DNA from: Candidatus Methanoperedens sp.
Lineage (GTDB): Bacteria; Patescibacteriota; Microgenomatia; UBA12405
Length of the DNA stretch: 64,000 nt
NCBI GenBank assembly: GCA_035562735.1
Contig: DATMWB010000003.1
Span: 44,232 to 108,231, forward strand
Reading direction: 5' to 3'
Every line of letters starts with the position of its first letter. Position 1 is the first letter of the stretch. Positions 15,404 to 61,628 of the stretch are shown here, one piece after another. A model generated the notes under the pieces. The model did no database searches. It was not told the origin of the DNA and saw only the letters and a program-made list of their open reading frames with translations. Position numbers and translations under genes: made by a program.

Positions 15404-17278
15404 ATGAACGCACGGGATTTGAAAAACAAATTTGTTGATTTTTTCAAAAACTATCAACATGCCGAAATTCCCAGTGCTTCAATTGTTCCCGAAAACGATC
15501 CCACCACTCTTTTCATTTCTGCTGGCATGCACCCCCTCGTTCCTTATCTCTTAGGTCAACCCCATCCTCTAGGCAAAAGGTTAGTTGATGTTCAAAAATG
15601 TATTCGTACTGGCGATATCGATGAAGTCGGTGATACCTATCATCACACTTTTTTTGAAATGCTTGGCAACTGGTCTCTTGGTGACTATTTCAAAAAAGAG
15701 ATGATTGCTTTTTCCTATGAGTTTTTAACCAACAAAAAATATCTAGGTCTTGATGTATCAAAATTAGCTTTCAGCTGTTTTGCTGGTGATCAAGACGCTC
15801 CTCGTGACGAAGAAAGTTTCAATTTTTGGCGTGAACAGGGAGTTAGTCCCAGCAGAATTGCCTATTTACCTAAAAAAAATAATTGGTGGGGTCCCGCTGG
15901 AGCTACTGGCCCCTGTGGTCCAGATACCGAAATGTTTTATTGGACAGGGGAGAGTGAAGCACCCGAAAAATTTGATGCCAATGATAGTCGTTGGTTGGAA
16001 ATTTGGAATGACGTTTTTATGCAGTACAACAAAAAAGCCAATGGTACCTTTGAAGCACTAAAAGCTCCAAACGTTGATACAGGTATGGGGGTTGAGCGAA
16101 CTACTGCAGTTTTATCGGGCTTATCGGATAATTATCAAACCTACATTTGGCAACCAATAATTCAAAAAATAGAGGAAATCTCTGGGAAAAAATATGTCGC
16201 TGCAATGAATAATCCCGTCATTGCGAGTAGCACATCCGTCATTGCGAGCGAAGCGAAGCAATCTTCTAAAAAAATCGCCACCTTATCTTCTACTTCTAAC
16301 GATGACGCCCGAAGTTTTCGCATTATCGCTGACCATATAAAGGCTGCAGTTTTTATGATTGCCGACAGTGTTGAACCCTCAAACAAAGAGCGTGGTTATG
16401 TTCTCCGTCGTCTTATTAGACGTAGTATCCGTCAAGGTAAAATTTTGGGAATAGAGCAAAATTTTTGCTCTATTATTGCCACTACTGTTTTAGACAATCA
16501 AAACAATTATGCTGGTACCTATTCCGAACTAGATTCAAACAAAAATAAAATTTTAGAGACTTTAGAGGCTGAAGAAACCAAATTTCGTCGCACTCTCAAC
16601 AAGGGTCTTAGTGAAATTACAAAATTAATTATCCGTCAAAAAAGTGTCTCCGGAAAAGAAGCTTTTGACTTATACCAATCCTTTGGTTTCCCCGTCGAAA
16701 TGATAGAGGAAGAATTAAGAAGAAACAATTTATCTTTAGATATTGCCGAGTTTAACCGTCTAAAAGAGGAACATCAAAAACTATCTCAAACTCTTTCTGC
16801 CGGAAAATTCAAGTCAGGTTTAGCTGATAATTCCGAAATTATCACCAAATATCACACTACTACCCATCTAATGCACGCCGCTCTTAGAAAAGTTTTGGGT
16901 GAGCATGTTGAACAAAGTGGTTCCAATATTACCTCAGAAAGACTTCGTTTTGATTTTTCCCATCCGCAAAAAGTTGCCGAAGATCAGCTAAAAGAAGTCG
17001 AAAAAATAGTCAATGAACAAATTAATGCCTCACTTTCCGTCACTGTGGAATCTATGAAATTTACTGATGCCCAAAAATCTGGTGCCTTAGCCTTTTTTGG
17101 CGCTAAATACCCAGAAATTGTTACTGTCTATACAGTCGGTGACCCAAAAAGTTTTTTTTCAAAGGAAGTCTGTACCGGCCCCCATGTCGATAATGTTGGG
17201 AAATTAGGTCATTTTGAAATTCAAAAAGAAGAATCCGCAGGCAGTGGCAAGCGTCGGATTTATGCTATTCTTAAGTAA
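15404..17278 (+). CDS. alaS: Alanyl-tRNA synthetase, short form lacking the C-Ala domain
   Basis: Met at 15404 aligns to the AlaRS N-terminus (…FVDFFKNYQHAEIPSASIVPENDPTTLF…). The catalytic and editing domains are present (HxxxH …CTGPHV). The ORF ends right after the editing domain. Confidence 0.88.
   Translation: MNARDLKNKFVDFFKNYQHAEIPSASIVPENDPTTLFISAGMHPLVPYLLGQPHPLGKRLVDVQKCIRTGDIDEVGDTYHHTFFEMLGNWSLGDYFKKEMIAFSYEFLTNKKYLGLDVSKLAFSCFAGDQDAPRDEESFNFWREQGVSPSRIAYLPKKNNWWGPAGATGPCGPDTEMFYWTGESEAPEKFDANDSRWLEIWNDVFMQYNKKANGTFEALKAPNVDTGMGVERTTAVLSGLSDNYQTYIWQPIIQKIEEISGKKYVAAMNNPVIASSTSVIASEAKQSSKKIATLSSTSNDDARSFRIIADHIKAAVFMIADSVEPSNKERGYVLRRLIRRSIRQGKILGIEQNFCSIIATTVLDNQNNYAGTYSELDSNKNKILETLEAEETKFRRTLNKGLSEITKLIIRQKSVSGKEAFDLYQSFGFPVEMIEEELRRNNLSLDIAEFNRLKEEHQKLSQTLSAGKFKSGLADNSEIITKYHTTTHLMHAALRKVLGEHVEQSGSNITSERLRFDFSHPQKVAEDQLKEVEKIVNEQINASLSVTVESMKFTDAQKSGALAFFGAKYPEIVTVYTVGDPKSFFSKEVCTGPHVDNVGKLGHFEIQKEESAGSGKRRIYAILK
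16216..16264 (+). repeat. Interspersed repeat copy A (partial unit plus full unit) inside the alaS coding sequence, in frame
   Basis: CGTCATTGCGAGtagcacatc + CGTCATTGCGAGCGAAGCGAAGCAATCT. It translates as VIASSTSVIASEAKQS within a loop insertion relative to canonical AlaRS. Confidence 0.7.
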
Positions 17279-19467
17279 TGGAGCTGTCCTATTATTGGCT
17301 TATTTCAATCACTACCGAAGTTGTTTCAGTGGGTCTGATAAAACGAGGTAATCCAAATACTTTGGCTGCGCTTGGTCCAGAAACCGAATGGCTTCCCGAC
17401 AATCCTGATTCATTTTTACACTCTGTTGATATTTCTTTATCAGAGGCGGCGCAAAAAGCTTCACTTGAGCCCGAACAAGAACCAGAAACAAGTGCTTTTA
17501 TCCTTCCACCAAAGTGGATCGGCAATGACGGTAAAATTTTTCCAGAATATTTAAAATTACTCGAAAACCTTTGTCGTTCTCTAAAATTAAAACCCCTTGG
17601 TTTTATCAGTAACGATGAAGCCTTCATCGAATCTCTTGGAAAAGAGGATTCATTCCCCCCAAGTTTTATTTTGGTATACCTTGGTATAAAAGAATTCTCC
17701 TTGTCCTTGGTATATCTTGGAGAAGTAAAAAAACGTTTTCATCAAGCCTTAAGTAATGATTTTACCCCTCAAGATTTAGAAAATGCTCTAGTTACTGTTC
17801 GTTTGGATTCAGCCTTACCCCCGAGAATTTTAGTCTTTGGTCATTTGGGATTAAGCATTATTGATGATTTAAAAAATTATTCTTGGATAGGTAAAAAAAA
17901 TGTTGAAACCTTTTTACATTTACCTGATGTTGAAGCCTATCAACCAGAGGAACTTTTTTCTTTGTATTGTAAAACCGTCTCCTCTCAAATTGAAAATAAA
18001 GCTCAAAATGCGTCACCCCCCCCAGTAGAAAAAGTTGATATCTCCGATAATAATCTCGAAGAGATAGCCGAGGAACCCATAGAAGAAATTGAAGAAACAG
18101 AAGAAGCTCCTAAAGACGAAAAAATATTTATCGAGGAAGATATAGAAAATTCCATAGATGAAGTTCCTGCGATGGATTTGGGTTTTTCCCAAATTACTGA
18201 CTCTGACTCTATTGTTTTGACTCCACCAACTTCTATTGATACAGACTCTTTTGCCAAGGAAAATATCGAGACTCAGTTACCCCCCTCAAAGTCCAACATA
18301 AATCTCCCTAAATTTTCCTTTCCCAAGATTTCTTTGCCAAGTTTAAAATTCAATCCTTGGTTCCTCTTTCCCTTGGCTCTTTCACCCCTACTTCTGCTCA
18401 TTCCCTACTATCTAATGAAAGCGGAAATTACGATAAATTTTACTCCAGTTGAGATAAACAAAGACTTCAATGTCACTCTTGATTCAACGGCTACTGATGT
18501 TACGACAAGTACCATTCCTGTTCTTAAAAAAACTCTTGATTTAAAGTTTTCAGAGTCTATTGCTACGACTGGTCAAAAAGAGACTGGTGACAAATCAAAA
18601 GGGGAAATTACCCTTTTTAACAAGGCTGACAAAATTCAAAATGCTCCCAAAGGCACAATACTATCTGACAACTCTGGTAAAAAATACGAACTACTCACTT
18701 CCATTCAAGTGCCCGCAAGTACCTTTGACCTCGCTGTTGGTAGTATTGCCATGGGAAAAATCAATGCCACCATAATTGCTAGTGATATTGGACCTGAGTT
18801 TGATTTAAATAAAGACACTCTTTTGTCCTTCAAAGATAACGCCAACTTACTGGCTAAAGTCAATGAAACAATTACCGGTGGAAGTCGACGTCAAATTAGA
18901 GTCGTCTCTTCCGAAGATAAAAGCAAATTAAATAAGGTCGTTACCGATTCTTTACCTACCCGCATTTCAGAAAAGGTTGACGCAGAATCTTCACTTGCTG
19001 GTCTTATGACTGGCACTCTCTTTGTCGACAAAAAACAACTCGATTTTAATCGTGAGATAGGTGAAGAGGCAGATACTCTTCAAGTAAATGCCAACTTGGT
19101 TCTTTCTTTGCTTCAAGTTGACCCCCAACAAAAAGAAAATATCCTAAAAACATTACTAGTAAATAATCAAGATGTTTTAAAATCTATTTCCTCACCCGCT
19201 GATTTTTCTTTTACTTTTAACGCCACCCAAAACACCTCATTAAAATCAACCGGAAAGTTGACCATAACAGGTAAGACACTTCCCAAAATTGATACTGAAA
19301 GCCTCCGTTCACGCTTAGTTGGGAAAAGTATCACTGACGCCTTGAGCATTGTAGATTCACAGTCCCGAGTTTATGATAGGGACATAAAGATAATTCCTTC
19401 CCCTTTCAAATTTCTCAAGCGTTTACCCCCATCTCGAGATAAAATTACCATTATCCAAAAATTTTAA
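17278..19467 (+). CDS. Membrane protein with a PilM/FtsA-like (actin-fold) cytoplasmic N-domain, an acidic linker, one TM helix and a beta-rich extracytoplasmic domain
   Basis: The N-terminal ~160 aa resemble the PilM/FtsA SHS2 region. An E/D-rich linker, a TM helix (WFLFPLALSPLLLLIPYYLM) and a ~350-aa C-terminal domain follow. The fold assignment is by eye only. Confidence 0.5.
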   Translation: MELSYYWLISITTEVVSVGLIKRGNPNTLAALGPETEWLPDNPDSFLHSVDISLSEAAQKASLEPEQEPETSAFILPPKWIGNDGKIFPEYLKLLENLCRSLKLKPLGFISNDEAFIESLGKEDSFPPSFILVYLGIKEFSLSLVYLGEVKKRFHQALSNDFTPQDLENALVTVRLDSALPPRILVFGHLGLSIIDDLKNYSWIGKKNVETFLHLPDVEAYQPEELFSLYCKTVSSQIENKAQNASPPPVEKVDISDNNLEEIAEEPIEEIEETEEAPKDEKIFIEEDIENSIDEVPAMDLGFSQITDSDSIVLTPPTSIDTDSFAKENIETQLPPSKSNINLPKFSFPKISLPSLKFNPWFLFPLALSPLLLLIPYYLMKAEITINFTPVEINKDFNVTLDSTATDVTTSTIPVLKKTLDLKFSESIATTGQKETGDKSKGEITLFNKADKIQNAPKGTILSDNSGKKYELLTSIQVPASTFDLAVGSIAMGKINATIIASDIGPEFDLNKDTLLSFKDNANLLAKVNETITGGSRRQIRVVSSEDKSKLNKVVTDSLPTRISEKVDAESSLAGLMTGTLFVDKKQLDFNREIGEEADTLQVNANLVLSLLQVDPQQKENILKTLLVNNQDVLKSISSPADFSFTFNATQNTSLKSTGKLTITGKTLPKIDTESLRSRLVGKSITDALSIVDSQSRVYDRDIKIIPSPFKFLKRLPPSRDKITIIQKF

Positions 19468-19469
19468 TC

Positions 19470-20201
19470 ATGAGTTATCTCTATGTTAAATCACCACCCA
19501 AGATTACTGCGCCCAAAAAAGTCATGTCGCCGCTGCGTCGAAAGATATTGGCCTCATTTTTTCTTGTTTCCGGCCTTTTGTTGTTTTTTTCAGTGGTCTT
19601 TCCCATAGTCCAATTTCAGCTTGAATATTCCACAAAGTTTAATCAAATTCTCAATCCACTTTCAAACCAATTCTACAACCAAAATGGTTCAGTTTTAGGT
19701 GATTTGAATACTGATTACACCGAATTATCGAATTGGTTTGTTAATGATTCAGAGGTGGTCTCATCTTCTTCACCAAGCTCCCTTATTACTACTTATTATG
19801 TATCCATTCCCAAATTGAAAATTGAGCAAGCGGCAGTCATTTTTGGTAGTACCGATTTGAAAAAATCACTTATCCAATATCCGAGAACCGCGCTTCCAGG
19901 TCAATTTGGATCTCCCGTTATCTTTGGCCATTCTGTGCTCCCTCAATTTTTCAACCCTAAGTCCTATATCACCATTTTTTCAACCTTACACAAATTGAAT
20001 CAAGGAGACGAAATATTTATTGATTATGATCATATCCGTTATAAATACGTCGTTGAAGAAATGTATGAAGTTCAACCTACCGACTTGTCGGTCTTAGAAC
20101 AGCGTTTTGATGGTCGATATCTAACCTTAGTTACCTGTTCTCCTCCTGGTACATATTTGCGCCGCTTAGTAATTAAAGCCCAAATTACCGACAATACATG
20201 A
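19470..20201 (+). CDS. Sortase family transpeptidase
   Basis: It has an N-terminal TM anchor, a catalytic His region (GHSVLP) and the TLVTC active-site motif. Confidence 0.7.
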   Translation: MSYLYVKSPPKITAPKKVMSPLRRKILASFFLVSGLLLFFSVVFPIVQFQLEYSTKFNQILNPLSNQFYNQNGSVLGDLNTDYTELSNWFVNDSEVVSSSSPSSLITTYYVSIPKLKIEQAAVIFGSTDLKKSLIQYPRTALPGQFGSPVIFGHSVLPQFFNPKSYITIFSTLHKLNQGDEIFIDYDHIRYKYVVEEMYEVQPTDLSVLEQRFDGRYLTLVTCSPPGTYLRRLVIKAQITDNT

Positions 20202-20572
20202 ACTATCTAGCTATTGATTATGGAACCAAAAGAATTGGTCTTGCCTATTCCCTAAACGGAATTATTTTTACTCTGCCCATTGTTCAAAATGACGACAAAA
20301 TTGTCGATATTCTAAAAAAAATTATTACTGAATATCAAATTGAAAAAATATTCATCGGTCTTTGTGAAGGGCCGATTGCAACAAAGACAAAAAAATTTAT
20401 TGATATGCTCACCCCCATGATAAAATTACCTATCGAAACAGTTGAAGAAGCGGTTAGTACAATCGAGGCTGAAAGTATTTTTTTAAAGAGTAAAAAAAAT
20501 ACCAAAAGTTACAAAAAACAAATCGATTCTGTAGCTGCTGCTGTAATTCTGAATCGAGTTATTGGTTTCTAA
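20198..20572 (+). CDS. ruvX: Putative pre-16S rRNA nuclease / Holliday junction resolvase YqgF
   Basis: It has the MNYLAIDYGTKRIGLA N-terminus typical of the YqgF/RuvX RNase H fold. Confidence 0.8.
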   Translation: MNYLAIDYGTKRIGLAYSLNGIIFTLPIVQNDDKIVDILKKIITEYQIEKIFIGLCEGPIATKTKKFIDMLTPMIKLPIETVEEAVSTIEAESIFLKSKKNTKSYKKQIDSVAAAVILNRVIGF

Positions 20573-20577
20573 AAACT

Positions 20578-20775
20578 ATGTTTAAAAATCTTATTTCCCC
20601 AATTCAAGCTTGGTTGTTGTCACAGGGTCGTTGTGTAGGATGTGGTGAAGAACTGTCTAAAGGACAAAGAAAAGTAATTCGAGGTCAAACAACTGTTACT
20701 TGTCGTTGTGGTAGGATATTTATCCATAACCATCAAAGTGACACCTATCGTCGAGCTCTTTTTAATGAAATTTAA
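20578..20775 (+). CDS. Small zinc-ribbon protein
   Basis: It has a CxxC…CxC cysteine arrangement (CVGCG…CRCGR). Confidence 0.35.
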   Translation: MFKNLISPIQAWLLSQGRCVGCGEELSKGQRKVIRGQTTVTCRCGRIFIHNHQSDTYRRALFNEI

Positions 20776-21698
20776 TGAAAAAACTTTTTTTTGTTTTTCC
20801 CCTAATTTTATTGCTTTTATTTGGACTATACATTTATAGTTTAACCTTTGCTCCCTCATCTGATACCACCAAAAAAGTTTTTGTAATAAATCAAGGAGAA
20901 CCTCTTCTGACCATTGCTTCAAGACTGGAAAAATTAAACTTTGTCCGTAGTCGATACGCCTTTATTGTCTATAGTCGATTGTCGGGTTTAAACACTCAAA
21001 TCAAAGCTGGTACTTTTTATCTTACTTCGTCAGAAAAACTTATCGAGCAAGCCCAAAGATTAACCAAGGGGGGTAGTACCGACTATTGGTTTAAAATTAT
21101 CCCCGGGTCTCGAATTGAAGAATTTTCCCCAGATACTGAATTTACCTCTGCTGCCCTTGGTCTTGAAGGTCAGCTTTTTCCTGATAGCTACTTAATTCCC
21201 AAGTATTACGTATCTTCGCAGATTCTTGACTTAATTTTAAAGAATTTTGAAGATAAGCAACTCGAAGCAAAAGGTAATTCTATCACTCCTTTTTCCGATT
21301 CCGAAGTGCTAGTTTTAGCTTCACTTTTAGAACGTGAAGCCAAAACATTGGCTGATAAAAAAATTATCGCTGGAATAATCAAAAATCGCCTAGACGTAGG
21401 CATGCCTCTTCAAATTGATGCCACTGTCCAATACGCCAAAGACTCTTTAGGCAACCCTGAAAAATACTGGAAGCCAATAAGCAAAGCCGATCTAAGCATT
21501 ATTTCTCCTTATAACACCTATAAAAACAAGGGATTACCCCCATCACCAATTTGTAATCCCGGTTTTGATTCACTAATTGCGGCCTATCATCCAACAGAAT
21601 CTAATTATGTCTACTACATCAATGATAATCAGGGAATTATGCATTACGCCAAAAATTTAGAAGAGCACAACACCAACGTGGCTAAATATTTAAGATGA
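20775..21698 (+). CDS. mltG: Endolytic murein transglycosylase MltG (YceG family)
   Basis: It has an N-terminal TM helix and YceG-like motifs (…KAGTFYL…, …LQIDATVQYA…). Confidence 0.8.
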   Translation: MKKLFFVFPLILLLLFGLYIYSLTFAPSSDTTKKVFVINQGEPLLTIASRLEKLNFVRSRYAFIVYSRLSGLNTQIKAGTFYLTSSEKLIEQAQRLTKGGSTDYWFKIIPGSRIEEFSPDTEFTSAALGLEGQLFPDSYLIPKYYVSSQILDLILKNFEDKQLEAKGNSITPFSDSEVLVLASLLEREAKTLADKKIIAGIIKNRLDVGMPLQIDATVQYAKDSLGNPEKYWKPISKADLSIISPYNTYKNKGLPPSPICNPGFDSLIAAYHPTESNYVYYINDNQGIMHYAKNLEEHNTNVAKYLR

Positions 21699-22261: not shown

Positions 22262-22266
22262 AAAAA

Positions 22267-22307
22267 CGTCATTGCGAGGAGCATTTGCTGAAGCGATGTG
22301 GCAATCT
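22267..22307 (+). repeat. Interspersed repeat copy B (divergent) between convergent gene ends
   Basis: CGTCATTGCGAGgagcatttgctgaagcgatgtgGCAATCT. Confidence 0.55.
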
Positions 22308-22328
22308 CAAAGGGATTGATTTTGTTTT

Positions 22329-23417: not shown

Positions 23418-23474
23418 TTGCGTTGTAAATATATCATAGTTGCGTCACCTTAGAAAAAATGAGAATATTATTTC

Positions 23475-34027: not shown

Positions 34028-34063
34028 TTCGTCATTGCGAGGAGGTACTCCGACGAAGCAATC
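34028..34063 (+). repeat. Interspersed repeat copy C (between the rpsG stop and a terminator)
   Basis: TCGTCATTGCGAGgaggtactccgacGAAGCAATCT. Confidence 0.7.
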
Positions 34064-34074
34064 TATTTTAAAAT

Positions 34075-34102
34075 AAAAAAGTCCCCTGTATAGGGGACTT
34101 TT
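34075..34102. terminator. Rho-independent terminator after rpsG (bidirectional-type hairpin)
   Basis: AAAAAGTCCCCT-gtat-AGGGGACTTTTT, a 12-bp stem with flanking A and T runs. Confidence 0.75.
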
Positions 34103-34136
34103 TAGTTATTTGTTCTATCATGTATCTGATATATAT

Positions 34137-40698: not shown

Positions 40699-41934
40699 TC
40701 AAATTCTCTTCCCCACTCTCTCTCCCTCTCTCACAGCATAATTAATACCCCTGTCTTCCGGATATATTTGTGCAAAGTTAACATGAATAACTTTATTTTC
40801 TACATTAGTTTTTCTCTCCGTCTTGTCATTATAATTTTTGGTAACTATATGTTGTGCATATTTAAATCTAAAAACATGTTTTTCAATAAGTCCTTTTTCA
40901 CTAAATTCAGGAAAAATTTTCTTTAAATAGTCAAAAAAATCTTTTTCAATTAAAGAGTCTTTGCATGTAAAATATTTGTGATTTTGGGGCAAATAAGTCC
41001 CCATATAATAAATATTTTTTCCGCCATAATTCTCTGTCCCCATTAGGTTTGTATGTTGAATAAAGGCCAAAAAAGGGGAGTTGATATCATTGATATTATG
41101 CCAATAATAAGGACTTAAACTCTGTTTTGAAGAAAAAACCATCGTCACCGCTCCCAAATAATCAATACCATCTAATGGCGCCGAGCTAATAATTCTATCG
41201 AATCCGTCATCGCGAGTGTAATCACGAAGCAATCTTTCTGGATTGGTCTCAATATTCGTCTTTATCTCTCCTCCCAACTCTTTTATTCTTTTTTCCAATT
41301 CATCAATAATTATTTGAAATCCTCCTTCCATATAACCTAGATACTCTTTCCCCCTTTCACTCGAATTACCTCTTGTATGAATTCTTGCCCACATCCATGC
41401 CATTGAAATATCTTGATATCTATCGTTAAATTTACCTTTTAATAGTGGCTCCCAGACTACTTTATAAGCATTTTCCCCACACCATTTTCTCATCCACTCA
41501 TAAGCCAAAACATCTTCAAATTTCTTCCAATTCTTTTCTCTTTCTAGATAGATTTTAACTAGTCCCAATCTCAACTTATCAAATAAATTTAGAGGTTTAA
41601 ATTTTAATAAATCTATTACCCCTGCAAACGGATATATAGTTCCACTGTAATATAGAGCAGTTTTACTCTCAAACCATTTTAACTTATTTTCCAAACCCAA
41701 CTCCTTGATCAAAGCAATTATTTCTTTGTCAGTTTTAAAAATGTGATGATAAGCTTTCTCTAAATTCGTCCCTTCAATTTTAAATCCCCCCAACAATCCA
41801 CCCAAACTATCACTTCTCTCAAAAATTATTACCTTATGACCCTTTTGAAGCATTCTGTATCCCACCACCAAACCTGTTATTCCTCCGCCGATTATTGCAA
41901 TTTTTTGTTTTTTCACTTCCAAATTATATCTCAA
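40699..41934 (-). CDS. FAD-dependent oxidoreductase (amine-oxidase / UDP-galactopyranose-mutase-like Rossmann family)
   Basis: It has the dinucleotide-binding motif IAIIGGGITGLVVG…E…GGL at the N-terminus and is about 410 aa. It sits in a sugar-nucleotide context. Confidence 0.6.
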   Translation of the reverse strand: MRYNLEVKKQKIAIIGGGITGLVVGYRMLQKGHKVIIFERSDSLGGLLGGFKIEGTNLEKAYHHIFKTDKEIIALIKELGLENKLKWFESKTALYYSGTIYPFAGVIDLLKFKPLNLFDKLRLGLVKIYLEREKNWKKFEDVLAYEWMRKWCGENAYKVVWEPLLKGKFNDRYQDISMAWMWARIHTRGNSSERGKEYLGYMEGGFQIIIDELEKRIKELGGEIKTNIETNPERLLRDYTRDDGFDRIISSAPLDGIDYLGAVTMVFSSKQSLSPYYWHNINDINSPFLAFIQHTNLMGTENYGGKNIYYMGTYLPQNHKYFTCKDSLIEKDFFDYLKKIFPEFSEKGLIEKHVFRFKYAQHIVTKNYNDKTERKTNVENKVIHVNFAQIYPEDRGINYAVREGERVGKRI

Positions 41935-44495: not shown

Positions 44496-44524
44496 TCGTC
44501 ATTGCGAGCGAAGCGAAGCAATCT
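44496..44524 (+). repeat. Interspersed repeat copy D (between the fusA stop and a terminator)
   Basis: TCGTCATTGCGAGCGAAGCGAAGCAATCT. Confidence 0.7.
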
Positions 44525-44534
44525 ATAAAAATCT

Positions 44535-44558
44535 AAACCCGCCGAAGAGGCGGGTTTT
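44535..44558 (+). terminator. Rho-independent terminator after fusA
   Basis: AAACCCGCC-gaaga-GGCGGGTTTT. Confidence 0.75.
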
Positions 44559-53112: not shown

Positions 53113-53114
53113 CT

Positions 53115-53300: not shown

Positions 53301-53307
53301 AAAATAT

Positions 53308-53676: not shown

Positions 53677-53682
53677 ACACTT

Positions 53683-54222: not shown

Positions 54223-54227
54223 ATCAT

Positions 54228-54572: not shown

Positions 54573-54579
54573 AAAAAAT

Positions 54580-55035: not shown

Positions 55036-55036
55036 T

Positions 55037-55492: not shown

Positions 55493-56769
55493 ATTACCTC
55501 TCAAAATCTTTATCTCTCTATTTTGAAGGTCTAAAGACACCACTGCTTCGTAAAAAGATTTTTATAACTCTTGGAATTTTAGTATTTTTCCGCCTAATCG
55601 CTCATATCCCAGTACCAGGTGTCAATTTATCTCTTCTAAAATCATTTTTTGCTCAAAATCAATTTTTATCGTTACTAGATATATTTTCTGGTGGAACATT
55701 AGCCAATTTTTCAATAGCCGCTTTAGGCCTAAATCCCTATATCAATGCTTCTATCATGCTTCAGCTGTTTGGTTTTGTTATTCCCGAATTAAAAGAATTA
55801 CAAAAAGAAGGGGAATATGGTCGTGCCAAAATAAATCAGTACACTAGAATTCTCACTATCCCCCTCTCAATTTTTCAGGCTTTAGCTATGTATGGTATTT
55901 TAAATTCCCAAAATATAATTGGCCAACAATCAATTTTAACTATTATTGCTCTTGTCCTCTCCATGGTTACCGGTACAATGATTATGATATTTCTTGGTGA
56001 GCTAATAAACGAATTTGGAATTGGCAATGGAATTTCGGTTATGATTTTTGCAGGTATTATTTCCCGCCTTCCCATCGCCGCTGTCCAATCACTTAGTCTA
56101 GCCGATTTTTCTAACCCCCAAACTCTCTTTAACTTAATCTTATTTTTGGCCTTAGCTTTTGCCATTGTATTTGCTGTGGTTACGATAGAAGAAGCTGTCT
56201 TTAGAATTCCAATTTCCTATGCAAAAAGAGCTCAAACCACCTATCTTCCCATAAAGGTAAATGTAGCCGGAGTCATGCCAATAATTTTTGCAGTTTCTCT
56301 TGTTTCTATGCCTTCTTTGTTGGGACAATCTCTTAGTCGAGTCAGTAATCCAGCCATTGCCAATTTTGCTAGACATCTCTCAGACGCTTTTAGTAGTACA
56401 AGTGCCACTTATTTAATATTTTATTTTCTTTTAGTTATTGGTTTCACGATATTTTATTCAACTGTCGTCTTTAAACCCAAAGATGTTGCCGAAGAACTTA
56501 GAAAATCAGGCGGTTTTATTCCCGGTATTCGACCAGGGATTGCCACCGAAAAAAGACTCCAATACTTACTCTATCGCGTTGTTTTTATCGGTGCAGTTTT
56601 CTTAGCTCTTATTGCGGTTGTCCCTTCTTTAGTCCAAAACATCACTGGCATCACTTCACTAACAATTGGTGGAACTTCAGTCCTCATTGTCGTCTCCGTT
56701 ATTCTAGAACTCAATCGTAAAATAGAAAATGTTGTTCAAATGTATAATTACGATAAACTAACTTATTAA
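55489..56769 (+). CDS. secY: Preprotein translocase subunit SecY
   Basis: 10-TM SecY; 426 aa. Confidence 0.92.
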
Positions 56770-56771
56770 AA

Positions 56772-57362
56772 ATGTCATTAAATCTTTTTATAATCGGTCC
56801 AAGTGGTTGTGGTAAATCGACCCAAGCCAAGCTCATTGCAAAAAAATACAATCTCACCCATCTTTCAACCGGCCAACTTCTTCGAGACGAAATAGCAAAT
56901 AAAACAGGCTTTGGTGTTGAAGCAAAAACATATATTGATCAAGGAAAATTAGTTCCCGATGATTTAGTTTTTGACGTTCTAGTAGCCAAATTAAAAACAA
57001 TAGATTATCAAAATTTTATTATTGATGGTTTTCCCCGACTTTTAAATCAAGGTAAAATTGTCGAATATTTTCTTAAAAAACAATCAAGACCTTTTTCTCT
57101 GCTAATTCATTTGACCGTAAGTCTTGCCGAAATTTCTACTCGCCGAGCCAGACTCGGAGATGAGTTTCAAGATAAAGACAGGACCGACAATACTCCTGAA
57201 GCTATTGCCTCACGTCAACAATTCTACGATGACGGTATTACTCCAATTCGTGAATACTTTGAATCAAAGGGATTATTTTTTGATGTTGATGGCAACCGGC
57301 CAGTCGAACCAGTTTTTACCGATATTGTTAACAAAATCGAAATAATTAAAAACAAATTATAA
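56772..57362 (+). CDS. adk: Adenylate kinase (short form without a zinc lid)
   Basis: GPSGCGKSTQA P-loop, 196 aa. Confidence 0.88.
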   Translation: MSLNLFIIGPSGCGKSTQAKLIAKKYNLTHLSTGQLLRDEIANKTGFGVEAKTYIDQGKLVPDDLVFDVLVAKLKTIDYQNFIIDGFPRLLNQGKIVEYFLKKQSRPFSLLIHLTVSLAEISTRRARLGDEFQDKDRTDNTPEAIASRQQFYDDGITPIREYFESKGLFFDVDGNRPVEPVFTDIVNKIEIIKNKL

Positions 57363-57373
57363 ATTTAATCTAA

Positions 57374-57577
57374 ATGAAAGAACCACAAGTAAAAGCAATT
57401 GTCACAGAAGTTCTACCCGACCAACTTTTTCGGGTAAAACTTGAGGACGGTCGTCAAATCGTCTGTTATTTAGCGGGAAAATTAAAAATGCACCATATCC
57501 GCTGTTTGGCTGGAGATACCGTATCTCTAGTCCTATCTCCCGATGGTAATAAAGGTCGTATAACTTATCGTGGTTAA
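57374..57577 (+). CDS. infA: Translation initiation factor IF-1
   Basis: 67 aa S1-like OB fold. Confidence 0.92.
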   Translation: MKEPQVKAIVTEVLPDQLFRVKLEDGRQIVCYLAGKLKMHHIRCLAGDTVSLVLSPDGNKGRITYRG

Positions 57578-57649
57578 TCCCCAAAAAAAATGTAATTTAC
57601 TCTTTGATATTATTCGAAGTTTAGGTTACAATACCAAAGTCTAAAGTTT

Positions 57650-57763
57650 ATGAAAGTTAAATCAAGCATAAAACTCCGCTGCAAGAACTGTAAAATCGTC
57701 ATTCGACGGGGTATTAAACGAGTTATTTGTTCTACCAAAAGACACACCCAAAAACAGGGTTAA
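57650..57763 (+). CDS. rpmJ: 50S ribosomal protein L36 (not in the ORF track, under 60 aa)
   Basis: Manual translation gives MKVKSSIKLRCKNCKIVIRRGIKRVICSTKRHTQKQG*. It shows the C-x2-C…C-x5-H zinc-ribbon L36 pattern in the canonical infA-rpmJ-rpsM position. Confidence 0.85.
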   Translation: MKVKSSIKLRCKNCKIVIRRGIKRVICSTKRHTQKQG

Positions 57764-57770
57764 CTTTAAT

Positions 57771-58187
57771 ATGAGAATTTCCGGAATTGAAATCCCCGAC
57801 AACGAAAGAGCCCAAATTGCTCTAACTCGTTTTTACGGTATTGGTCCAAAAAATGTTATCGAATTAGCCAAAAAAGCTGGTATTGAACTTGATACTCGGG
57901 TTAAAACCTTTACTCGTGACAACATTAGCAATCTAATGAAAGCTTTGGAAGAGTTCCAAACAGAAGGTGACCTAAAAAGAGAAATTCGTGAAAATATTGA
58001 TCGTTTAAAAGCAATTAAATGTTACCGTGGTATTCGCCATATTGTTTCTCTCCCTGTACGTGGTCAAAGGACAAAATCTAATTCCCGTACACGCAAGGGT
58101 AAAAAGAAAACAGTTGGTTCTCTTACCAAGGAAGCTTGGGCAAAAATTGAAACCCAGCAAAAAGCTGCTTCAACCGCAAAAAAATAA
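57771..58187 (+). CDS. rpsM: 30S ribosomal protein S13
   Basis: MRISGIEIPDNER…. Confidence 0.92.
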   Translation: MRISGIEIPDNERAQIALTRFYGIGPKNVIELAKKAGIELDTRVKTFTRDNISNLMKALEEFQTEGDLKREIRENIDRLKAIKCYRGIRHIVSLPVRGQRTKSNSRTRKGKKKTVGSLTKEAWAKIETQQKAASTAKK

Positions 58188-58193
58188 AATCAT

Positions 58194-58619
58194 ATGGCTA
58201 AATCAACCAAAACTGAATCATCTTCACAAAAAGTCAAAGCACCTTCAGTTCGAAAGAAAGTTATCAAAAGTATTTCTGAAGGTAGACTTTATATTCAATC
58301 CACCTTCAACAACACCATTGTCACAGTTACTGATGCCAATGGAAATGCTCTTGCTTGGTCTTCCTCAGGTCAGTGTGGTTTCAAGGGTTCGAGGAAATCA
58401 ACTCCTTTCGCCGCTACCACTGCCATCGAAAAAGCTCTTGATGGTGTCAAACAGTATGGTATTAAAAAATTAGCAGTTTACTTAAAAGGTCCAGGTACAG
58501 GCCGAGACGCCGCACTCCGATTCTTGCGTACAAAGCGAGATTTTGAAGTTGACGTAATTGCCGATGTTACCCCAGTTCCACACAACGGCCCCCGACCTCC
58601 CAAGGCCCGCCGAGTTTAA
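58194..58619 (+). CDS. rpsK: 30S ribosomal protein S11
   Basis: 141 aa, in canonical position. Confidence 0.92.
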
Positions 58620-58630
58620 TCTAAACCAAT

Positions 58631-59260
58631 ATGAGAACTACACTAGATACCAAATGTCGTCTTTGTCGAGCAGAGGGCGTTAAGCTCTACCTAAAAGGTG
58701 CTCGTTGTTTTTCACCAAAATGCCCACTAGAAAAAAAAGGCGCTATTAAGCCTGGTATGCACGGTTTGAAAAGAGGTAAAAAACCCACTGATTACGGAAT
58801 TCAACTTCGTGCCAAACAAAAAGCCAAGAGAATTTACGGAGTTATGGAAACTCAGTTCAAAAATTATTACAACGCCGCCAAAAAGCTAAAAGGTTTAGTT
58901 GGTGACAATTTAATGATTCTTTTAGAAAGAAGACTCGACAATGTTGTTTATAATGCTGGTTTGTGTTTATCAAGAAGTCATGCAAAGGAGTTAATCAGTC
59001 ATAAACAAATTCTTGTAAATGATGCTGTCCTCAACATCTCCTCTTATCAAGTTAATGTTGGTGATGTAATTACCTTAAAATCAAAGATAGTTGAAAAGTC
59101 TGGCGATACTTTTAAATATGCCGACAAAGACTTCAAATCCCCAGAATGGATTGATCTCAACAAATCAAAAAATTCTGCTAAAATACTTGCTCTTCCCATT
59201 ATCGATCAAAATCAAAACGGGATCGATGTTAATTTAATCATTGAATATTATTCAAGATAA
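58631..59260 (+). CDS. rpsD: 30S ribosomal protein S4
   Basis: N-terminal zinc-finger-like CRLCRAEG…CFSPKC. Confidence 0.92.
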   Translation: MRTTLDTKCRLCRAEGVKLYLKGARCFSPKCPLEKKGAIKPGMHGLKRGKKPTDYGIQLRAKQKAKRIYGVMETQFKNYYNAAKKLKGLVGDNLMILLERRLDNVVYNAGLCLSRSHAKELISHKQILVNDAVLNISSYQVNVGDVITLKSKIVEKSGDTFKYADKDFKSPEWIDLNKSKNSAKILALPIIDQNQNGIDVNLIIEYYSR

Positions 59261-59276
59261 CAAAAAGGAGACACTC

Positions 59277-60197
59277 ATGATCGACACCAGCCGATTTCAT
59301 ATCAAAACCATTAAACAAAATGCCAATTATGGCAAATTTGAATTAAGTCCTCTTGTTGGTGGATTAGGCCACACTTTAGGAAATAGTCTTCGACGTATTT
59401 TATTAATCACTATTCCAGGTGCTGCCATTACCCGTATCAAAATAGATGGAGCCACCCATCTTTTTACCACCCTAAACGGTGTTAAAGAAGATTTAGTTGA
59501 AGTTTCTTTAAATCTTAAAAAAGTAAAGTTTACCTACACCAAGGAAGAACCCATTACTCTCGTTTTAGATAAAAAAGGTAAAGGTGTCGTTACTGCTGGA
59601 GATATTGCCGACAATACTGTTTGTAAAGTAGCCAATCCTGATCAAGTTATTGCTACCCTTACTGATGACAAAGCCCATCTAAAAATTGAAATAACTGTTG
59701 AACGTGGTGTTGGTTATACTCTGGCTCGTGAACAAAAAACCGATATCGTTGGCGAAATAATTCTAGATGCAACTTTTACCTCTGTTTTAAAAGCTAATTA
59801 CACTGTTGAACCAACCCGTCTTGGTAAAAAGAGTAATTATGACAAATTAACCATGGAAATTTGGACCGACGGTTCTATTGAACCTATGGCCGCACTTCAA
59901 GCTGCAACCAAAGATTTAATCAATGCCCTTAGCCAAATTGTTGATACTCGTGAATTCGACGACGAGGTCATAACTTTAGATTCAATGCCTATCAACCAAA
60001 TGGCAGAAATCAGTGTTGAAGAAATTGAATTACCTCTTCGAGTTACCAATGCTCTTAAAAAAGCAGGTTATCCTACTATTGACGCCCTAGTCAAAGCTGG
60101 TCGTCCTGATGTTAGCAAGGCAAAAAATGTTGGCGAAAAATCATTAAAAATTATTGATGCTTGGCTTCGAGAAAAAGGCTTTTCTTGGAACAAATAA
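59277..60197 (+). CDS. rpoA: DNA-directed RNA polymerase subunit alpha
   Basis: The ATG at 59277 has an SD (AAAGGAG) 7 nt upstream. The track start at 59241 overlaps rpsD and is rejected. Confidence 0.9.
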   Translation: MIDTSRFHIKTIKQNANYGKFELSPLVGGLGHTLGNSLRRILLITIPGAAITRIKIDGATHLFTTLNGVKEDLVEVSLNLKKVKFTYTKEEPITLVLDKKGKGVVTAGDIADNTVCKVANPDQVIATLTDDKAHLKIEITVERGVGYTLAREQKTDIVGEIILDATFTSVLKANYTVEPTRLGKKSNYDKLTMEIWTDGSIEPMAALQAATKDLINALSQIVDTREFDDEVITLDSMPINQMAEISVEEIELPLRVTNALKKAGYPTIDALVKAGRPDVSKAKNVGEKSLKIIDAWLREKGFSWNK

Positions 60198-60200
60198 AGT

Positions 60201-60713
60201 ATGAGACATCGAATATCTGGTCGACAATTAGGACGTAATATCAACGAACGCCAATCTCTCTATCGTTCTCAGTTGCGCAGTCTTTTCACTTATGGTTTTA
60301 TCAAAACCACCACCGCCAAAGCAAAATCTATAATGCCTTTGGCAGAAAAAATTGCTGCCGCTGCAGTAAAAGCAGATCTAAACTCTCGTCGCTATATTTT
60401 TACCTTCTTTCAAGATAGAAATGTTGTCAACAATATTGTCACCGCATTTTCAACCACTTTTTCTGGTCAAACCCAAAATTTTACCCAGATGAACAACGTC
60501 AAGTTTCGACAAGGTGATAATGCCTTGATTGTCAAACTAAGTTTTATCAAAGAAATAAACACCTTACCCAAGGAGATTTCCAAGCAAGATAAAAAAGCTG
60601 CTTCAGACAAAATAAAAACCTCCTTTGGTGGTAAAAAAGTTGCTGTAAAAAAGGAGACTGTAAAAAAAGAAGTTACTAAAAAAGTCGTTAAAAAAGGGGA
60701 AACTAAAAAATGA
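60201..60713 (+). CDS. rplQ: 50S ribosomal protein L17 (with Lys-rich C-terminal tail)
   Basis: MRHRISGRQLGRN…, with a C-terminal KKVAVKKETVKKEVTKKVVKK tail. Confidence 0.88.
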   Translation: MRHRISGRQLGRNINERQSLYRSQLRSLFTYGFIKTTTAKAKSIMPLAEKIAAAAVKADLNSRRYIFTFFQDRNVVNNIVTAFSTTFSGQTQNFTQMNNVKFRQGDNALIVKLSFIKEINTLPKEISKQDKKAASDKIKTSFGGKKVAVKKETVKKEVTKKVVKKGETKK

Positions 60714-61132
60714 AATCAAAAACCACTGTTTTAAAAGGAAGTAATCCAGTCCGTTCCTGGGTTTTAGTTGACTTGTCAGGTAAAACATTGGGACGTGCCG
60801 CCACAGAAATTGCTGCGGTACTCATGGGAAAAAACAAAGCCACTTTTTCATATCATCGAGATGATGGTGATTATGTAGTAGCTATCAATGCCAAGGATAT
60901 TGTTGTTACCGGAAAAAAACTAAAGCAAAAAATATATTATCACCATACTGCATTCGCCGGACATTTAAAAGAAATGAGTCTAAAAGAACTGATGGTCAAG
61001 GATCCTCGCAAAGTAATTGAATTTGCTGTTCATGGCATGCTTCCTAAAAATCATCTTCGACCTCTTAGAATGCGCCGTTTAAAAATTTCTGCAAATGCAG
61101 AACACAAATATACCGAAAAATTAGGTAAATAA
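60710..61132 (+). CDS. rplM: 50S ribosomal protein L13
   Basis: 140 aa, in canonical position. Confidence 0.92.
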   Translation: MKSKTTVLKGSNPVRSWVLVDLSGKTLGRAATEIAAVLMGKNKATFSYHRDDGDYVVAINAKDIVVTGKKLKQKIYYHHTAFAGHLKEMSLKELMVKDPRKVIEFAVHGMLPKNHLRPLRMRRLKISANAEHKYTEKLGK

Positions 61133-61134
61133 TT

Positions 61135-61551
61135 ATGGCAACTCCAAAAACCACCAAAAAAACCGCCAATACTTATGTTTACGCCCTCGGTCGTCGTAAA
61201 TCTGCTGTTGCTACCATCAAATTATTTTCTGGAAAAGGTGATTCAACCATCAACGCTCGAGAAATTAATAAATACTTCCCCTTAACTTTTTCTCGTCTCG
61301 AGCTACCATTCAAAACAACTGGAACGGAAGGAAAATTTCATTTTTCTGCCAAAATTGTTGGCGGTGGAAGAACCGGTCAATTAGCCGCTCTGATTTTAGC
61401 CATATCCCGCGCTCTTAAAAAGGGCAATCCTGACATGACCCTCGCTTTAGCTCAAGCAGGACTTTTGACTGTTGACGCTAGAGTTCGTGAAAGAAGAATG
61501 GTTGGTACCGGCGGTAAAGCTCGTAAACAAAAGCAATCTCCAAAGCGTTAA
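61135..61551 (+). CDS. rpsI: 30S ribosomal protein S9
   Basis: C-terminal …GGKARKQKQSPKR. Confidence 0.92.
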   Translation: MATPKTTKKTANTYVYALGRRKSAVATIKLFSGKGDSTINAREINKYFPLTFSRLELPFKTTGTEGKFHFSAKIVGGGRTGQLAALILAISRALKKGNPDMTLALAQAGLLTVDARVRERRMVGTGGKARKQKQSPKR

Positions 61552-61558
61552 TATTCTT

Positions 61559-61628
61559 GTCATTGCGACCACCTTCGTCATTTTGACTACCTTCGTCATT
61601 GCGAGGAGGTACTCCGACGAAGCAATCT
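61559..61628 (+). repeat. Interspersed repeat copy E (two 18-bp partial units plus a full unit) between the rpsI stop and a terminator
   Basis: GTCATTGCGACCACCTTC | GTCATTTTGACTACCTTC | GTCATTGCGAGgaggtactccgacGAAGCAATCT. Confidence 0.7.

What the first reader, a model, noticed from the sequence alone, without database searches (positions are those of the whole stretch)
16216..61628. Family of short interspersed repeats (TCGTCATTGCGAG-N10-19-GAAGCAATCT) occupying the stop-codon-to-terminator gap of core genes
There are five copies, all in the same orientation: 16216-16264 (inside alaS), 22267-22307, 34028-34063 (after rpsG), 44496-44524 (after fusA) and 61559-61628 (after rpsI). The 5' half (T)CGTCATTGCGAG and 3' half GAAGCAATCT are conserved, and ATTGC/GCAAT can pair as a small hairpin. 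The middle comes in two flavours, CGAAGCGAA and GAGGTACTCCGAC. Copies A and E carry extra tandem partial 5' units of 18-21 bp. Three copies sit immediately upstream of strong intrinsic terminators. Five copies in 64 kb of a small genome is a dense, structured repeat family. It could be a REP/RPE-like selfish element, an RNA 3'-end processing or protein-binding site, or an anchor for something still unknown.
Basis: seen in the sequence. Interest (0 to 1): 0.75.

Follow-up and report, generated by a model that had tools for sequence, protein, structure and literature searches.

The report
Ssn-nuclease hairpin repeats (CGTC REPs)
The repeats are real, but they belong to an already described and very widespread family of short hairpin repeats (CGTC-tagged REPs, also called Ssn-related motifs) that small GIY-YIG 'Ssn' nucleases recognise on single-stranded DNA, so the finding is genuine and mostly already explained.

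Summary
CGTCATTGCGAG occurs six times exactly plus once with one mismatch, all on the + strand, against 0.1 expected.

The unit is not specific to this genome. The same 12-mer and 9-mer around a variable hairpin saturate scans of viral contigs and of species-representative genomes from at least nine phyla.

The family matches the CGTC-tagged REPs of Di Nocera 2013. In 80 metagenome loci found only by protein similarity, a ~95-aa GIY-YIG gene has a copy upstream in 59/78 and an inverted copy downstream in 44/77 (background about 0.02 per 200 nt). This reproduces the NTS/SRM-Ssn system of Chenal 2025, in which the hairpin is bound as ssDNA and cut just upstream.

New points are modest:
- The published SRM search pattern misses this ATTGC subtype.
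- The host is a Shapirobacteria-like CPR.
- The alaS copy is an in-frame inverted doublet, absent from some close relatives.

No ssn gene lies in the window. The RNA 3'-end reading has no support. Verdict: new member of a known kind, low to moderate interest.

The parts
16196..16307 (+). In-frame insert in alaS (about 32-34 extra residues, VAAMNNPVIASSTSVIASEAKQSSKKIATLSSTS). It holds all the alaS repeat pieces.
   Evidence: The PDB alignment breaks here: query residues 284-320 face 6 residues of Aquifex AlaRS. Shapirobacteria homologs P0125, P0126, P0130, P0143 and P0217 lack the insert. P0124 has a 20-residue version, and P0122 has the full one.
16216..16227 (+). Orphan 5' half (CGTCATTGCGAG with no 3' half), 9 nt before copy A
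   Evidence: The same layout (12-mer, 9 nt, then a full copy) sits next to the GIY-YIG gene in L159.
16236..16266 (+). Full copy A, short type (inner GCGAAGC mini-hairpin), inside alaS
   Evidence: CM 43.6 bits, E 1.9e-9
16274..16307 (-). Decayed inverted partner of copy A (ATCGCC...GATGACG). Together with copy A it forms a tag-outward doublet.
   Evidence: Homologous positions in L445 and L446 are recognised by the CM on the - strand (E 0.06 and 0.024). DNA alignment. The window version itself falls below the CM threshold.
22266..22309 (+). Full copy B, long divergent middle, 3' end GTGGCAATCT. It lies 5 nt after the NUDIX stop and 19 nt before the stop of the convergent radical-SAM gene.
   Evidence: CM 25.4 bits, E 1.4e-4; ORFs
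34029..34066 (+). Full copy C, long type (GAGGAGGTACTCCGAC), 19 nt after the rpsG stop
   Evidence: CM 36.8 bits, E 1.3e-7
34076..34103 (.). Terminator-like hairpin 11 nt after copy C (a neighbour, not part of the repeat)
41204..41237 (+). It is antisense inside ORF 40699-41934(-), where it encodes RLLRDYTRDDG.
   Evidence: CM 20.8 bits, E 2.4e-3. Whether it is an insertion is unresolved.
44496..44526 (+). Full copy D, short type, 43 nt after the fusA stop
   Evidence: CM 42.0 bits, E 5e-9
44535..44557 (.). Terminator-like hairpin 10 nt after copy D (a neighbour, not part of the repeat)
   Evidence: scored on the - strand; sequence
61559..61592 (+). Two orphan 5' units of 18 nt (GTCATTGCGACCACCTTC, GTCATTTTGACTACCTTC) before copy E
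   Evidence: A related strain's contig, L121, has only one such unit.
61593..61630 (+). Full copy E, long type with the same middle as copy C. CGTC starts 42 nt after the rpsI stop.
   Evidence: CM 40.2 bits, E 1.6e-8. The Logan contigs L121 and L442 both end inside this copy.
61642..61667 (+). Terminator-like hairpin with a T run, 13 nt after copy E (a neighbour, not part of the repeat)
   Evidence: Read directly from the sequence

Best explanation
The units are a local population of CGTC-tagged REPs, also called Ssn-related motifs. Each is a short imperfect hairpin with five parts:
- an unpaired 5' tag, (C/T)GTC;
- a 5-bp outer stem, ATTGC/GCAAT;
- a purine-rich internal loop, GA on the 5' side and GAA on the 3' side;
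- a variable inner hairpin closed by G...C;
- an invariant C right after the stem.

In other genomes, two such units in tag-outward orientation flank a ~95-aa single-domain GIY-YIG nuclease gene (ssn). In the Neisseria member that has been studied, this nuclease binds the hairpin only when the DNA is single-stranded, only on the tagged strand, and cuts a few nucleotides upstream.

Doublets without the gene look like miniature derivatives of the gene-carrying unit. Single copies look like half-sites.

In this Shapirobacteria-like CPR genome the units have spread into tolerated places: just after stop codons, ahead of terminators, and in frame into a loop of AlaRS. They are gained and lost between close relatives.

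Shown here: the anatomy, covariation of the stems, cross-phylum distribution, linkage to the GIY-YIG gene, and insertion polymorphism.

Inferred from the literature: ssDNA binding and cleavage by a cognate Ssn.

Unknown: how copies multiply, and whether this genome still has an ssn gene.
For: Non-random and oriented:
- 7 matches against 0.1 expected, all on +.
- A CM trained elsewhere finds six full copies, all on +.

Hairpin:
- Of 287 distinct inner segments, 251 start with G and 250 end with C.
- They have 1.91 contiguous end pairs on average against 0.38 in shuffles, with 41 different stems of 3 bp or more.
- The outer stem covaries in relatives.

Same unit elsewhere:
- The viral-contig loci range from 30 to 72% GC.
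- Record titles name at least nine phyla, including two Patescibacteria MAGs.
- Of 41 adjacent pairs, 34 are tag-outward, with a spacer mode of 22-24 nt.

Linkage to the nuclease gene (80 loci retrieved by GIY-YIG protein similarity only):
- 59/78 have a + copy within 200 nt upstream.
- 44/77 have a - copy within 200 nt downstream.
- 34/75 have both.
- Background is 0.022 per 200 nt.
- The gene in L159 is flanked exactly by copies.

Same protein family as the NTS-flanked genes: E of 6e-31 to 1.7e-23 over the whole profile.

Literature:
- CGTC REPs with an unpaired tag, AT-starting stems, mostly head-to-head dimers, intragenic members and no transposase (PMC3733652).
- NTS = CGTCATTCCCGCGMAVGCGGGAATCYRG, the NTS-ssnA-NTS layout, ssDNA-only strand-specific binding, a cut upstream of the motif, and GTC plus the C after the palindrome as the critical bases (PMC11893778).
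- Those same bases are invariant in alignment A2.

Mobility: the alaS site is empty in L444, holds a 71-nt doublet in L445, and holds the doublet plus 42 nt in the window and L446. The syntenic 21.8 kb of L444 has no copy at all.
Against: - No ssn gene lies in the 64 kb, and I could not reach the rest of the source genome. A working nuclease in this organism is therefore not shown.
- None of the six copies matches the published degenerate SRM search pattern, as I implemented it.
- The stem-and-loop geometry differs from the 8-9 bp stems with 4-5 nt loops given for CGTC families.
- Nearest-neighbour folding gives no significant stability for single copies, as RNA or as DNA.
- Ssn is only known to be a nuclease. 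Nobody has shown that it copies the repeats.
- No cognate enzyme for the ATTGC subtype has been assayed.
Confidence: 0.8

Rival explanations
1. An RNA element of the 3' UTR. The hairpin is transcribed with rpsG, fusA and rpsI, and it stabilises, processes or helps terminate the mRNA.
For: - Four of six copies lie 5-43 nt after a stop codon in the sense orientation, and three are followed within 10-13 nt by a terminator-like hairpin.
- Across other loci, single copies between same-direction genes are sense 25 times and antisense 12 times, p about 0.05.
- Di Nocera et al. argue that many REPs are transcribed (PMC3733652).
Against: - RNA folding z-scores run from -2.25 to +0.64. Only copy B reaches -2.25, and its predicted fold is not the family hairpin.
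- There is no Rfam hit.
- One copy is antisense to its host gene and one is translated inside alaS.
- Relatives lack the copies at the same sites, so the genes do not need them.
- The same unit flanks a nuclease gene in both orientations.
- N. meningitidis SsnA does not bind RNA (PMC11893778).
- A side effect on mRNA is not excluded.
Confidence: 0.1
2. A REPIN-type element mobilised by a REP-associated tyrosine (Y1/HUH) transposase.
For: - The general likeness: an unpaired 4-nt tag followed by a hairpin, inverted doublets, and locations after genes.
- A syntenic relative carries an IS200-like Y1 ORF (L444 3468-4091, 27.2 bits).
Against: - A RAYT query found nothing in 2 Mb of repeat-bearing loci.
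- The Y1 ORF in L444 sits in a stretch with no copies of the repeat, and the window has an FMN reductase at that place.
- Di Nocera et al. found no tyrosine transposase flanked by CGTC units (PMC3733652).
- The gene that is flanked is a GIY-YIG nuclease.
Confidence: 0.04
3. Inert relics. The units were spread in an ancestor by an Ssn-carrying element that has since been lost, and they now only decay.
For: - No ssn gene lies in the window.
- The window holds decayed pieces: the inverted alaS partner, orphan 5' halves, copy B and copy F.
- Chenal et al. report that 19% of genomes rich in SRMs lack a recognisable homolog (PMC11893778).
Against: - Four copies are near-perfect, and two share an identical 35-nt sequence (34030-34064 and 61594-61628).
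- The number of 18-nt units differs between strains whose S9 proteins are identical, which points to recent change.
- This is a sub-case of the main explanation rather than a true alternative.
Confidence: 0.25

Closest known systems
NTS / Ssn-related motifs (SRM) with Ssn GIY-YIG ssDNA nucleases (Chenal et al., Nat Commun 2025, PMC11893778)
   Same: - The 5' CGTCATT and the 3' AATCY(RG) are identical to the Neisseria NTS.
- A hairpin lies between them.
- The element is directional.
- Inverted copies flank a ~95-aa single-domain GIY-YIG gene.
- Copies number many per genome and occur across many phyla.
   Different: - The stem is ATTGC/GCAAT with a GA/GAA internal loop and a variable inner hairpin, not ATTCCCGCG/CGCGGGAAT.
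- The published degenerate pattern does not match any window copy.
- No enzyme of this subtype has been assayed.
- No ssn gene lies in the window.
- The host is a CPR bacterium.
CGTC-tagged REP superfamily, families CGTC-1 to CGTC-4 (Di Nocera et al., BMC Genomics 2013, PMC3733652)
   Same: - An unpaired CGTC/TGTC tag.
- A stem that starts with A-T and T-A.
- A short 3' tail.
- Mostly head-to-head dimers.
- Location after ORFs.
- Intragenic members.
- No tyrosine transposase.
   Different: - The described families have 8-9 bp stems and 4-5 nt loops.
- They were found in 5 phyla, mostly Alphaproteobacteria.
- The ATTGCGAG string is absent from the paper's text and its held supplements.
- The authors say bulged types may have escaped them.
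Neisseria dRS3/NIME repeats and Rickettsia RPE-4 and RPE-6
   Same: - Di Nocera et al. equate them with CGTC-1 and CGTC-4.
- RPEs are known for in-frame insertion into protein genes, as seen here in alaS.
   Different: - Different stem sequences and lengths.
- Sequence similarity to RPEs was not tested here.
GTAG REPs / REPINs with RAYT transposases
   Same: The logic is the same: a tagged ssDNA hairpin, inverted doublets, and a single gene flanked by the repeats.
   Different: - A different tag.
- A different enzyme class: HUH/Y1 rather than GIY-YIG.
- REPIN-RAYT systems are reported to be inherited mostly vertically, whereas this unit is found with identical sequence across phyla and on viral contigs.

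Membership tests
CGTC-tagged REPs (Di Nocera 2013) | Unpaired CGTC (or TGTC/CCTC) tag at one end | tested here: met
   All six full copies start with CGTC. GTC is invariant in 44 copies from unrelated loci, where TGTC is frequent.
CGTC-tagged REPs (Di Nocera 2013) | Stem whose first two positions are complementary A-T and T-A | tested here: met
   ATTGC/GCAAT in five copies and ATCGC/GCAAT in copy F. The variants ATTCT/AGAAT and ATCCT/AGGAT keep the AT start.
CGTC-tagged REPs (Di Nocera 2013) | Stem of 8-9 bp and loop of 4-5 nt | tested here: not met
   The outer stem is 5 bp, followed by a GA/GAA internal loop and an inner hairpin of 5-40 nt.
CGTC-tagged REPs (Di Nocera 2013) | Short unpaired 3' tail (consensus CCA) | tested here: inconclusive
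   The C after the stem is invariant. Window tails are CT followed by a variable base, whereas doublets elsewhere end in CCAG.
CGTC-tagged REPs (Di Nocera 2013) | Mostly head-to-head dimers | tested here: met
   In other genomes, 34 of 41 adjacent pairs are tag-outward. In the window only the alaS unit is a doublet.
CGTC-tagged REPs (Di Nocera 2013) | Located after ORFs (unidirectional or convergent contexts), with some intragenic units | tested here: met
   In the window, 4 copies lie after stop codons and 2 are intragenic. In other loci the contexts are 37 unidirectional, 12 convergent and 2 divergent.
SRM/NTS-Ssn system (Chenal 2025) | Match to the published degenerate pattern HGTCWYN(0-2)YYVSBRHN(0-5)WNVSBRGN(0-2)RNCYNB | tested here: not met
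   0 of 6 window copies match, and there are 0 hits near the 80 GIY-YIG genes. The Neisseria NTS control matches.
SRM/NTS-Ssn system (Chenal 2025) | Conserved GTC before the palindrome and a C right after it (the bases critical for cutting and binding in NTS) | tested here: met
   G3, T4, C5 and C28 are invariant in alignment A2 and present in all six window copies.
SRM/NTS-Ssn system (Chenal 2025) | Inverted copies flank a small single-domain GIY-YIG gene (motif-ssn-motif) | tested here: met
   59/78 upstream, 44/77 downstream and 34/75 both, against a background of 0.022 per 200 nt. L159 shows exact flanking. This holds for the repeat family, not for the window itself.
SRM/NTS-Ssn system (Chenal 2025) | The flanked protein belongs to the Ssn family (cd10448; about 94 aa) | tested here: inconclusive
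   The proteins are 95-98 aa and hit only PF01541. GIY-YIG genes flanked by NTS-type hairpins (L401, L376) hit their profile at 6e-31 and 1.7e-23. I could not make a direct comparison with N. meningitidis SsnA or with CDD.
SRM/NTS-Ssn system (Chenal 2025) | A cognate ssn gene in the same genome | not testable with these tools
   There is none in the 64 kb. The 111.9-kb source contig and the rest of the genome could not be fetched.
SRM/NTS-Ssn system (Chenal 2025) | Strand-specific binding and cutting of ssDNA, with none on dsDNA or RNA | not testable with these tools
   This needs a biochemical assay.
REPIN/RAYT | A Y1/HUH transposase gene flanked by the repeats | tested here: not met
   There was no RAYT hit in 2 Mb of repeat-bearing loci. 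The Y1 ORF in L444 has no copies nearby.
Any Rfam RNA family | Score at or above a family's gathering threshold | tested here: not met
   0 matches in the window.

The most novel reading that the evidence does not exclude
The ATTGC subtype, with its GA/GAA internal loop, could be a distinct and so far uncatalogued class of Ssn motif.
- The published search pattern misses it.
- It is paired with its own tightly conserved Ssn subclade (60-76% identity among the hits retrieved).
- It occurs with identical 21 specified bases in at least nine phyla and on many viral contigs.

That pattern would fit an element that is spreading horizontally now, rather than an ancient domesticated one. In DNA-scavenging CPR bacteria it might act on incoming or replicating ssDNA, and it can write itself in frame into essential genes such as alaS.
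Probability: 0.3. Interest if true: 0.5.

Novelty: new member of a known kind. Interest (0 to 1): 0.3.

Why it matters
For annotation, these units explain several things:
- contig breaks (two Logan contigs end inside copy E);
- spurious small ORFs;
- odd peptide inserts such as VIASEAKQS in AlaRS and RLLRDYTRDDG in an oxidase.

For the Ssn field, the result extends the motif catalogue. A very common subtype lies outside the published search pattern, so published counts of motif-flanked ssn genes are probably underestimates.

It also places the system in CPR/Patescibacteria, whose small genomes are usually thought to be poor in repeats.

The series of alaS alleles (empty, doublet, doublet plus extra piece) gives a natural before-and-after set for working out how these units insert, which is still unknown.

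Tried and rejected
1. Rfam at gathering thresholds gave nothing.
2. Folding single copies as RNA or DNA gave z-scores near zero, so I rested the hairpin claim on covariation instead.
3. Literature search by sequence strings and by repeat-encoded peptides returned only chance primer hits.
4. All-against-all clustering of ORFs near copies in viral contigs was swamped by phage modules and by spurious high-GC ORFs. It gave no lead.
5. The RAYT hypothesis found no hit.
6. E. coli YhbQ as a probe was too distant. Probes that I recalled from memory served only as search seeds, and were then replaced by real proteins from the database.
7. Attempts to reach the rest of the source contig by exact-protein look-ups failed or returned only short Logan contigs.
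8. I tried to orient the copies relative to replication using GC skew. The + strand is C-rich throughout although it carries nearly all genes, so the direction of replication could not be called.
9. Whether copy F is an insertion in the oxidase gene is unresolved, because the only structural homolog is too distant.
10. NCBIfam and PADLOC have no specific model for the nuclease. The nearest solved structure is a UPF0213 protein at E 2e-6.
11. The supplements of both key papers held no usable sequence lists.

Full report

Yes. CGTCATTGCGAG occurs six times exactly, at 16216, 16237, 22267, 34030, 44497 and 61594. It occurs once more with one mismatch at 41205. All are on the + strand. Dinucleotide-preserving shuffles give 0.10 matches on average and never 7. 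GAAGCAATCT follows at five of these sites.

Reading the sites shows six full units and three orphan 5' halves. The orphans are at 16216-16227 and, as two 18-nt units, at 61559-61592.

It lies antisense inside an amine-oxidase-like ORF. Copy B ends in GTGGCAATCT rather than GAAGCAATCT.

- copy A is inside alaS;
- copies C, D and E lie 19-43 nt after the stops of rpsG, fusA and rpsI;
- copy B lies between a NUDIX gene and a convergent radical-SAM gene.

Terminator-like hairpins start 10-13 nt after copies C, D and E.

**2. Anatomy**

I scanned viral contigs for the 12-mer and the 9-mer GAAGCAATC separated by 4-30 bases.

The middles differ widely but always form a hairpin. Examples are GCGNAGC (N = A 30, C 18, G 10, T 10), GGNAC, GGGCTTGCCC and GGCCCGCCGTTCGGGCC.

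Over all loci there are 287 distinct inner segments:
- 251 begin with G and 250 end with C;
- they carry 1.91 contiguous Watson-Crick pairs from their ends, against 0.38 in shuffles;
- there are 41 different stems of 3 bp or more.

The unit therefore reads: tag (C/T)GTC, outer stem ATTGC/GCAAT, internal loop GA on one side and GAA on the other, a variable G...C-closed hairpin, then an invariant C (alignment A2).

My reading is that the GA/GAA loop forms sheared G·A pairs and that GNA is a mini-loop. That is an inference, not a result. Standard folding energies for single copies are not significant, as RNA or as DNA. Support for the structure comes from covariation.

The outer stem covaries as well:
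- ATTCT/AGAAT and ATCCT/AGGAT around a GIY-YIG gene in L235;
- ATCG/CGAT in the alaS partner copy.

**3. Distribution**

The viral-contig loci that carry the unit range from 30 to 72% GC.

Its record titles name Alpha- and Gammaproteobacteria, Bacteroidota, Ignavibacteria, Patescibacteria (L150, L199), Melainabacteria, Planctomycetota, Sporomusa, Haliangium and Armatimonadetes.

Plasmids of Novosphingobium, Methylosinus, Methylobacterium and Aulosira carry the unit, and it is never annotated there.

Adjacent copies are mostly tag-outward doublets: 34 of 41, with a spacer mode of 22-24 nt. Such a doublet folds into a long hairpin with z = -13.

**4. What the unit is linked to**

A RAYT probe found nothing in 2 Mb of repeat-bearing loci.

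A small GIY-YIG gene turned up in three loci. In L159 it is flanked exactly by inverted copies. The left one has the same layout as window copy A: a 12-mer, 9 nt, then a full unit.

I then made a test that does not depend on the repeat:
- The L159 protein has thousands of 95-98-aa homologs that hit only PF01541.
- An alignment of 20 of these homologs (A1) retrieved 80 metagenome loci by protein similarity alone.
- Of these, 59/78 have a + copy within 200 nt upstream.
- 44/77 have a - copy within 200 nt downstream, often overlapping the stop codon.
- 34/75 have both.
- The background more than 600 nt away is 0.022 per 200 nt.

**5. Comparison with what is known**

Di Nocera et al. 2013 (PMC3733652) defined CGTC-tagged REPs. 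Their features are an unpaired CGTC/TGTC tag, stems starting with A-T and T-A, a short tail, mostly head-to-head dimers, a location after ORFs, and some intragenic members. They equated these repeats with Neisseria dRS3 and with Rickettsia RPE-4 and RPE-6. They stressed that no dedicated transposase is known.

Chenal et al. 2025 (PMC11893778) found the partner:
- The Neisseria NTS, CGTCATTCCCGCGMAVGCGGGAATCYRG, and related 'SRM' hairpins flank ssnA.
- ssnA encodes a 94-aa single-domain GIY-YIG protein.
- The protein binds the motif only as ssDNA and only on the tagged strand.
- It cuts a few nt upstream and lowers transformation by NTS-bearing DNA.
- The three bases before the palindrome matter most for cutting, and the C after it matters most for binding.

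The window unit shares the 5' CGTCATT and the 3' AATCY with the NTS. Those critical bases are invariant in A2.

To tie the proteins together, I fetched viral contigs carrying NTS-type hairpins. GIY-YIG genes flanked by them (L401, L376) match the A1 profile over its full length at 6e-31 and 1.7e-23.

My analysis therefore rediscovers a published system.

**6. What is not in those papers**

- The published degenerate SRM pattern, as I coded it, matches the NTS control. It matches none of the six window copies and nothing near the 80 GIY-YIG genes.
- All 80 of those genes carry ATTGC-type flanks.
- The ATTGCGAG string is absent from the text and held supplements of the 2013 paper.
- The geometry (5-bp stem, internal loop, variable inner hairpin) departs from the 8-9 bp stems and 4-5 nt loops of the CGTC families. 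The 2013 authors note that bulged types may have escaped them.

**7. Behaviour in this lineage**

The AlaRS is 100% identical to P0121, which sits on a 111.9-kb NCBI contig labelled Methanoperedens. All of its close relatives are Candidatus Shapirobacteria.

The window's protein carries 32-34 residues that P0125, P0126, P0130, P0143 and P0217 lack. P0124 has a 20-residue version, and P0122 has the full one. The insert falls where the PDB alignment breaks.

At the DNA level:
- the site is empty in L444;
- L445 holds a 71-nt tag-outward doublet bounded by CGTC...GACG;
- the window and L446 hold that doublet plus 42 further nt containing an orphan 5' half.

The model recognises the inverted partner in L445 and L446. 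In the window the partner has decayed (16274-16307).

The syntenic 21.8 kb of L444 has no copy at all.

Two Logan contigs from related samples end inside copy E. One of them has a single 18-nt orphan unit where the window has two.

Orphan 5' halves lie upstream of full copies 46 times in 629, against 18 times downstream.

These facts point to recent gain, loss and local remodelling.

**8. Model search of the window**

Model R1 was built only from copies next to GIY-YIG genes in unrelated metagenomes. It finds six full copies, all on the + strand, and nothing else below E = 0.1.

No ssn gene lies in the 64 kb. The rest of the genome was out of reach.

**9. Rivals**

*An RNA 3'-UTR role.* The position and sense orientation of four copies favour it, as does a weak sense bias elsewhere (25 against 12). 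Several facts count against it: the folding results, the antisense and intragenic copies, the empty sites in relatives, and the flanking of a nuclease gene in both orientations.

*A RAYT-driven REPIN.* This is not supported.

*Relics of a lost element.* This remains possible for this particular genome.

**10. Verdict**

The repeat family is real and correctly delimited apart from one missed copy. It is a Shapirobacteria-lineage population of CGTC-tagged REPs / Ssn-related motifs.

The most likely mechanism is recognition of the tagged strand, when single-stranded, by a cognate Ssn nuclease. How the copies multiply is unknown.

It is a new member of a known kind: a subtype outside the published search pattern, in a new host lineage. 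Interest is low to moderate.

Noticed in passing
window 15404-17278 (alaS); whole window: The AlaRS is 100% identical to a protein on a 111.9-kb NCBI contig labelled 'Candidatus Methanoperedens sp.' MAG. All of its close relatives (66-89% identity) are Candidatus Shapirobacteria or Patescibacteria, so the contig is probably a mis-binned CPR contig.
   Followed up: partly
window 61559-61592 vs L121 10424-10441: The number of 18-nt orphan 5' units before copy E differs between strains. The window has two. A Logan contig that encodes an identical S9 protein has one.
   Followed up: partly
window 1-64000: The GC skew of the + strand is negative in every 8-kb window (-0.02 to -0.15), although nearly all genes, including the ribosomal protein operons, are on the + strand. 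The direction of replication could not be inferred.
   Followed up: no
L444 3468-4091 vs window 7736-8320: A syntenic Shapirobacteria relative has an IS200-like Y1 transposase ORF (PF01797, 27.2 bits) between RNase J and ProRS. The window has an FMN reductase at that place.
   Followed up: partly
window 17278-19467; L444 11779-13953: A 724-729-aa ORF with no Pfam match directly follows alaS, overlapping its stop codon. It is conserved in position in the relative.
   Followed up: no
L025 2690-2820: Four head-to-tail copies of the unit with a 33-nt period (GTCGTCGTCATTGCGAGCCTGCGAAGCAATCTG). This is a tandem array rather than the usual inverted doublet.
   Followed up: no
L235 3930-4480; L043 10490-10990: Other GIY-YIG genes of the same family are flanked by different hairpins: GTCATTCTGAG..GAAGAATC, GTCATCCTGAGG..GAAGGATC, and a GGGCTTGACCCGG type. 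This suggests many co-varying nuclease-motif pairs. The L043 gene looks frameshifted.
   Followed up: partly
window 41204-41237 (ORF 40699-41934, - strand): The antisense copy is translated as RLLRDYTRDDG inside a flavin amine-oxidase-like protein. The alignment to the only structural homolog shows no clear extra length, so it is unclear whether this copy is an insertion or a replacement.
   Followed up: partly
window 34030-34064 and 61594-61628: Copies C and E share an identical 35-nt sequence, including the GAGGAGGTACTCCGAC middle. Copies A and D share the short middle. So there are two sequence subtypes within one genome.
   Followed up: no
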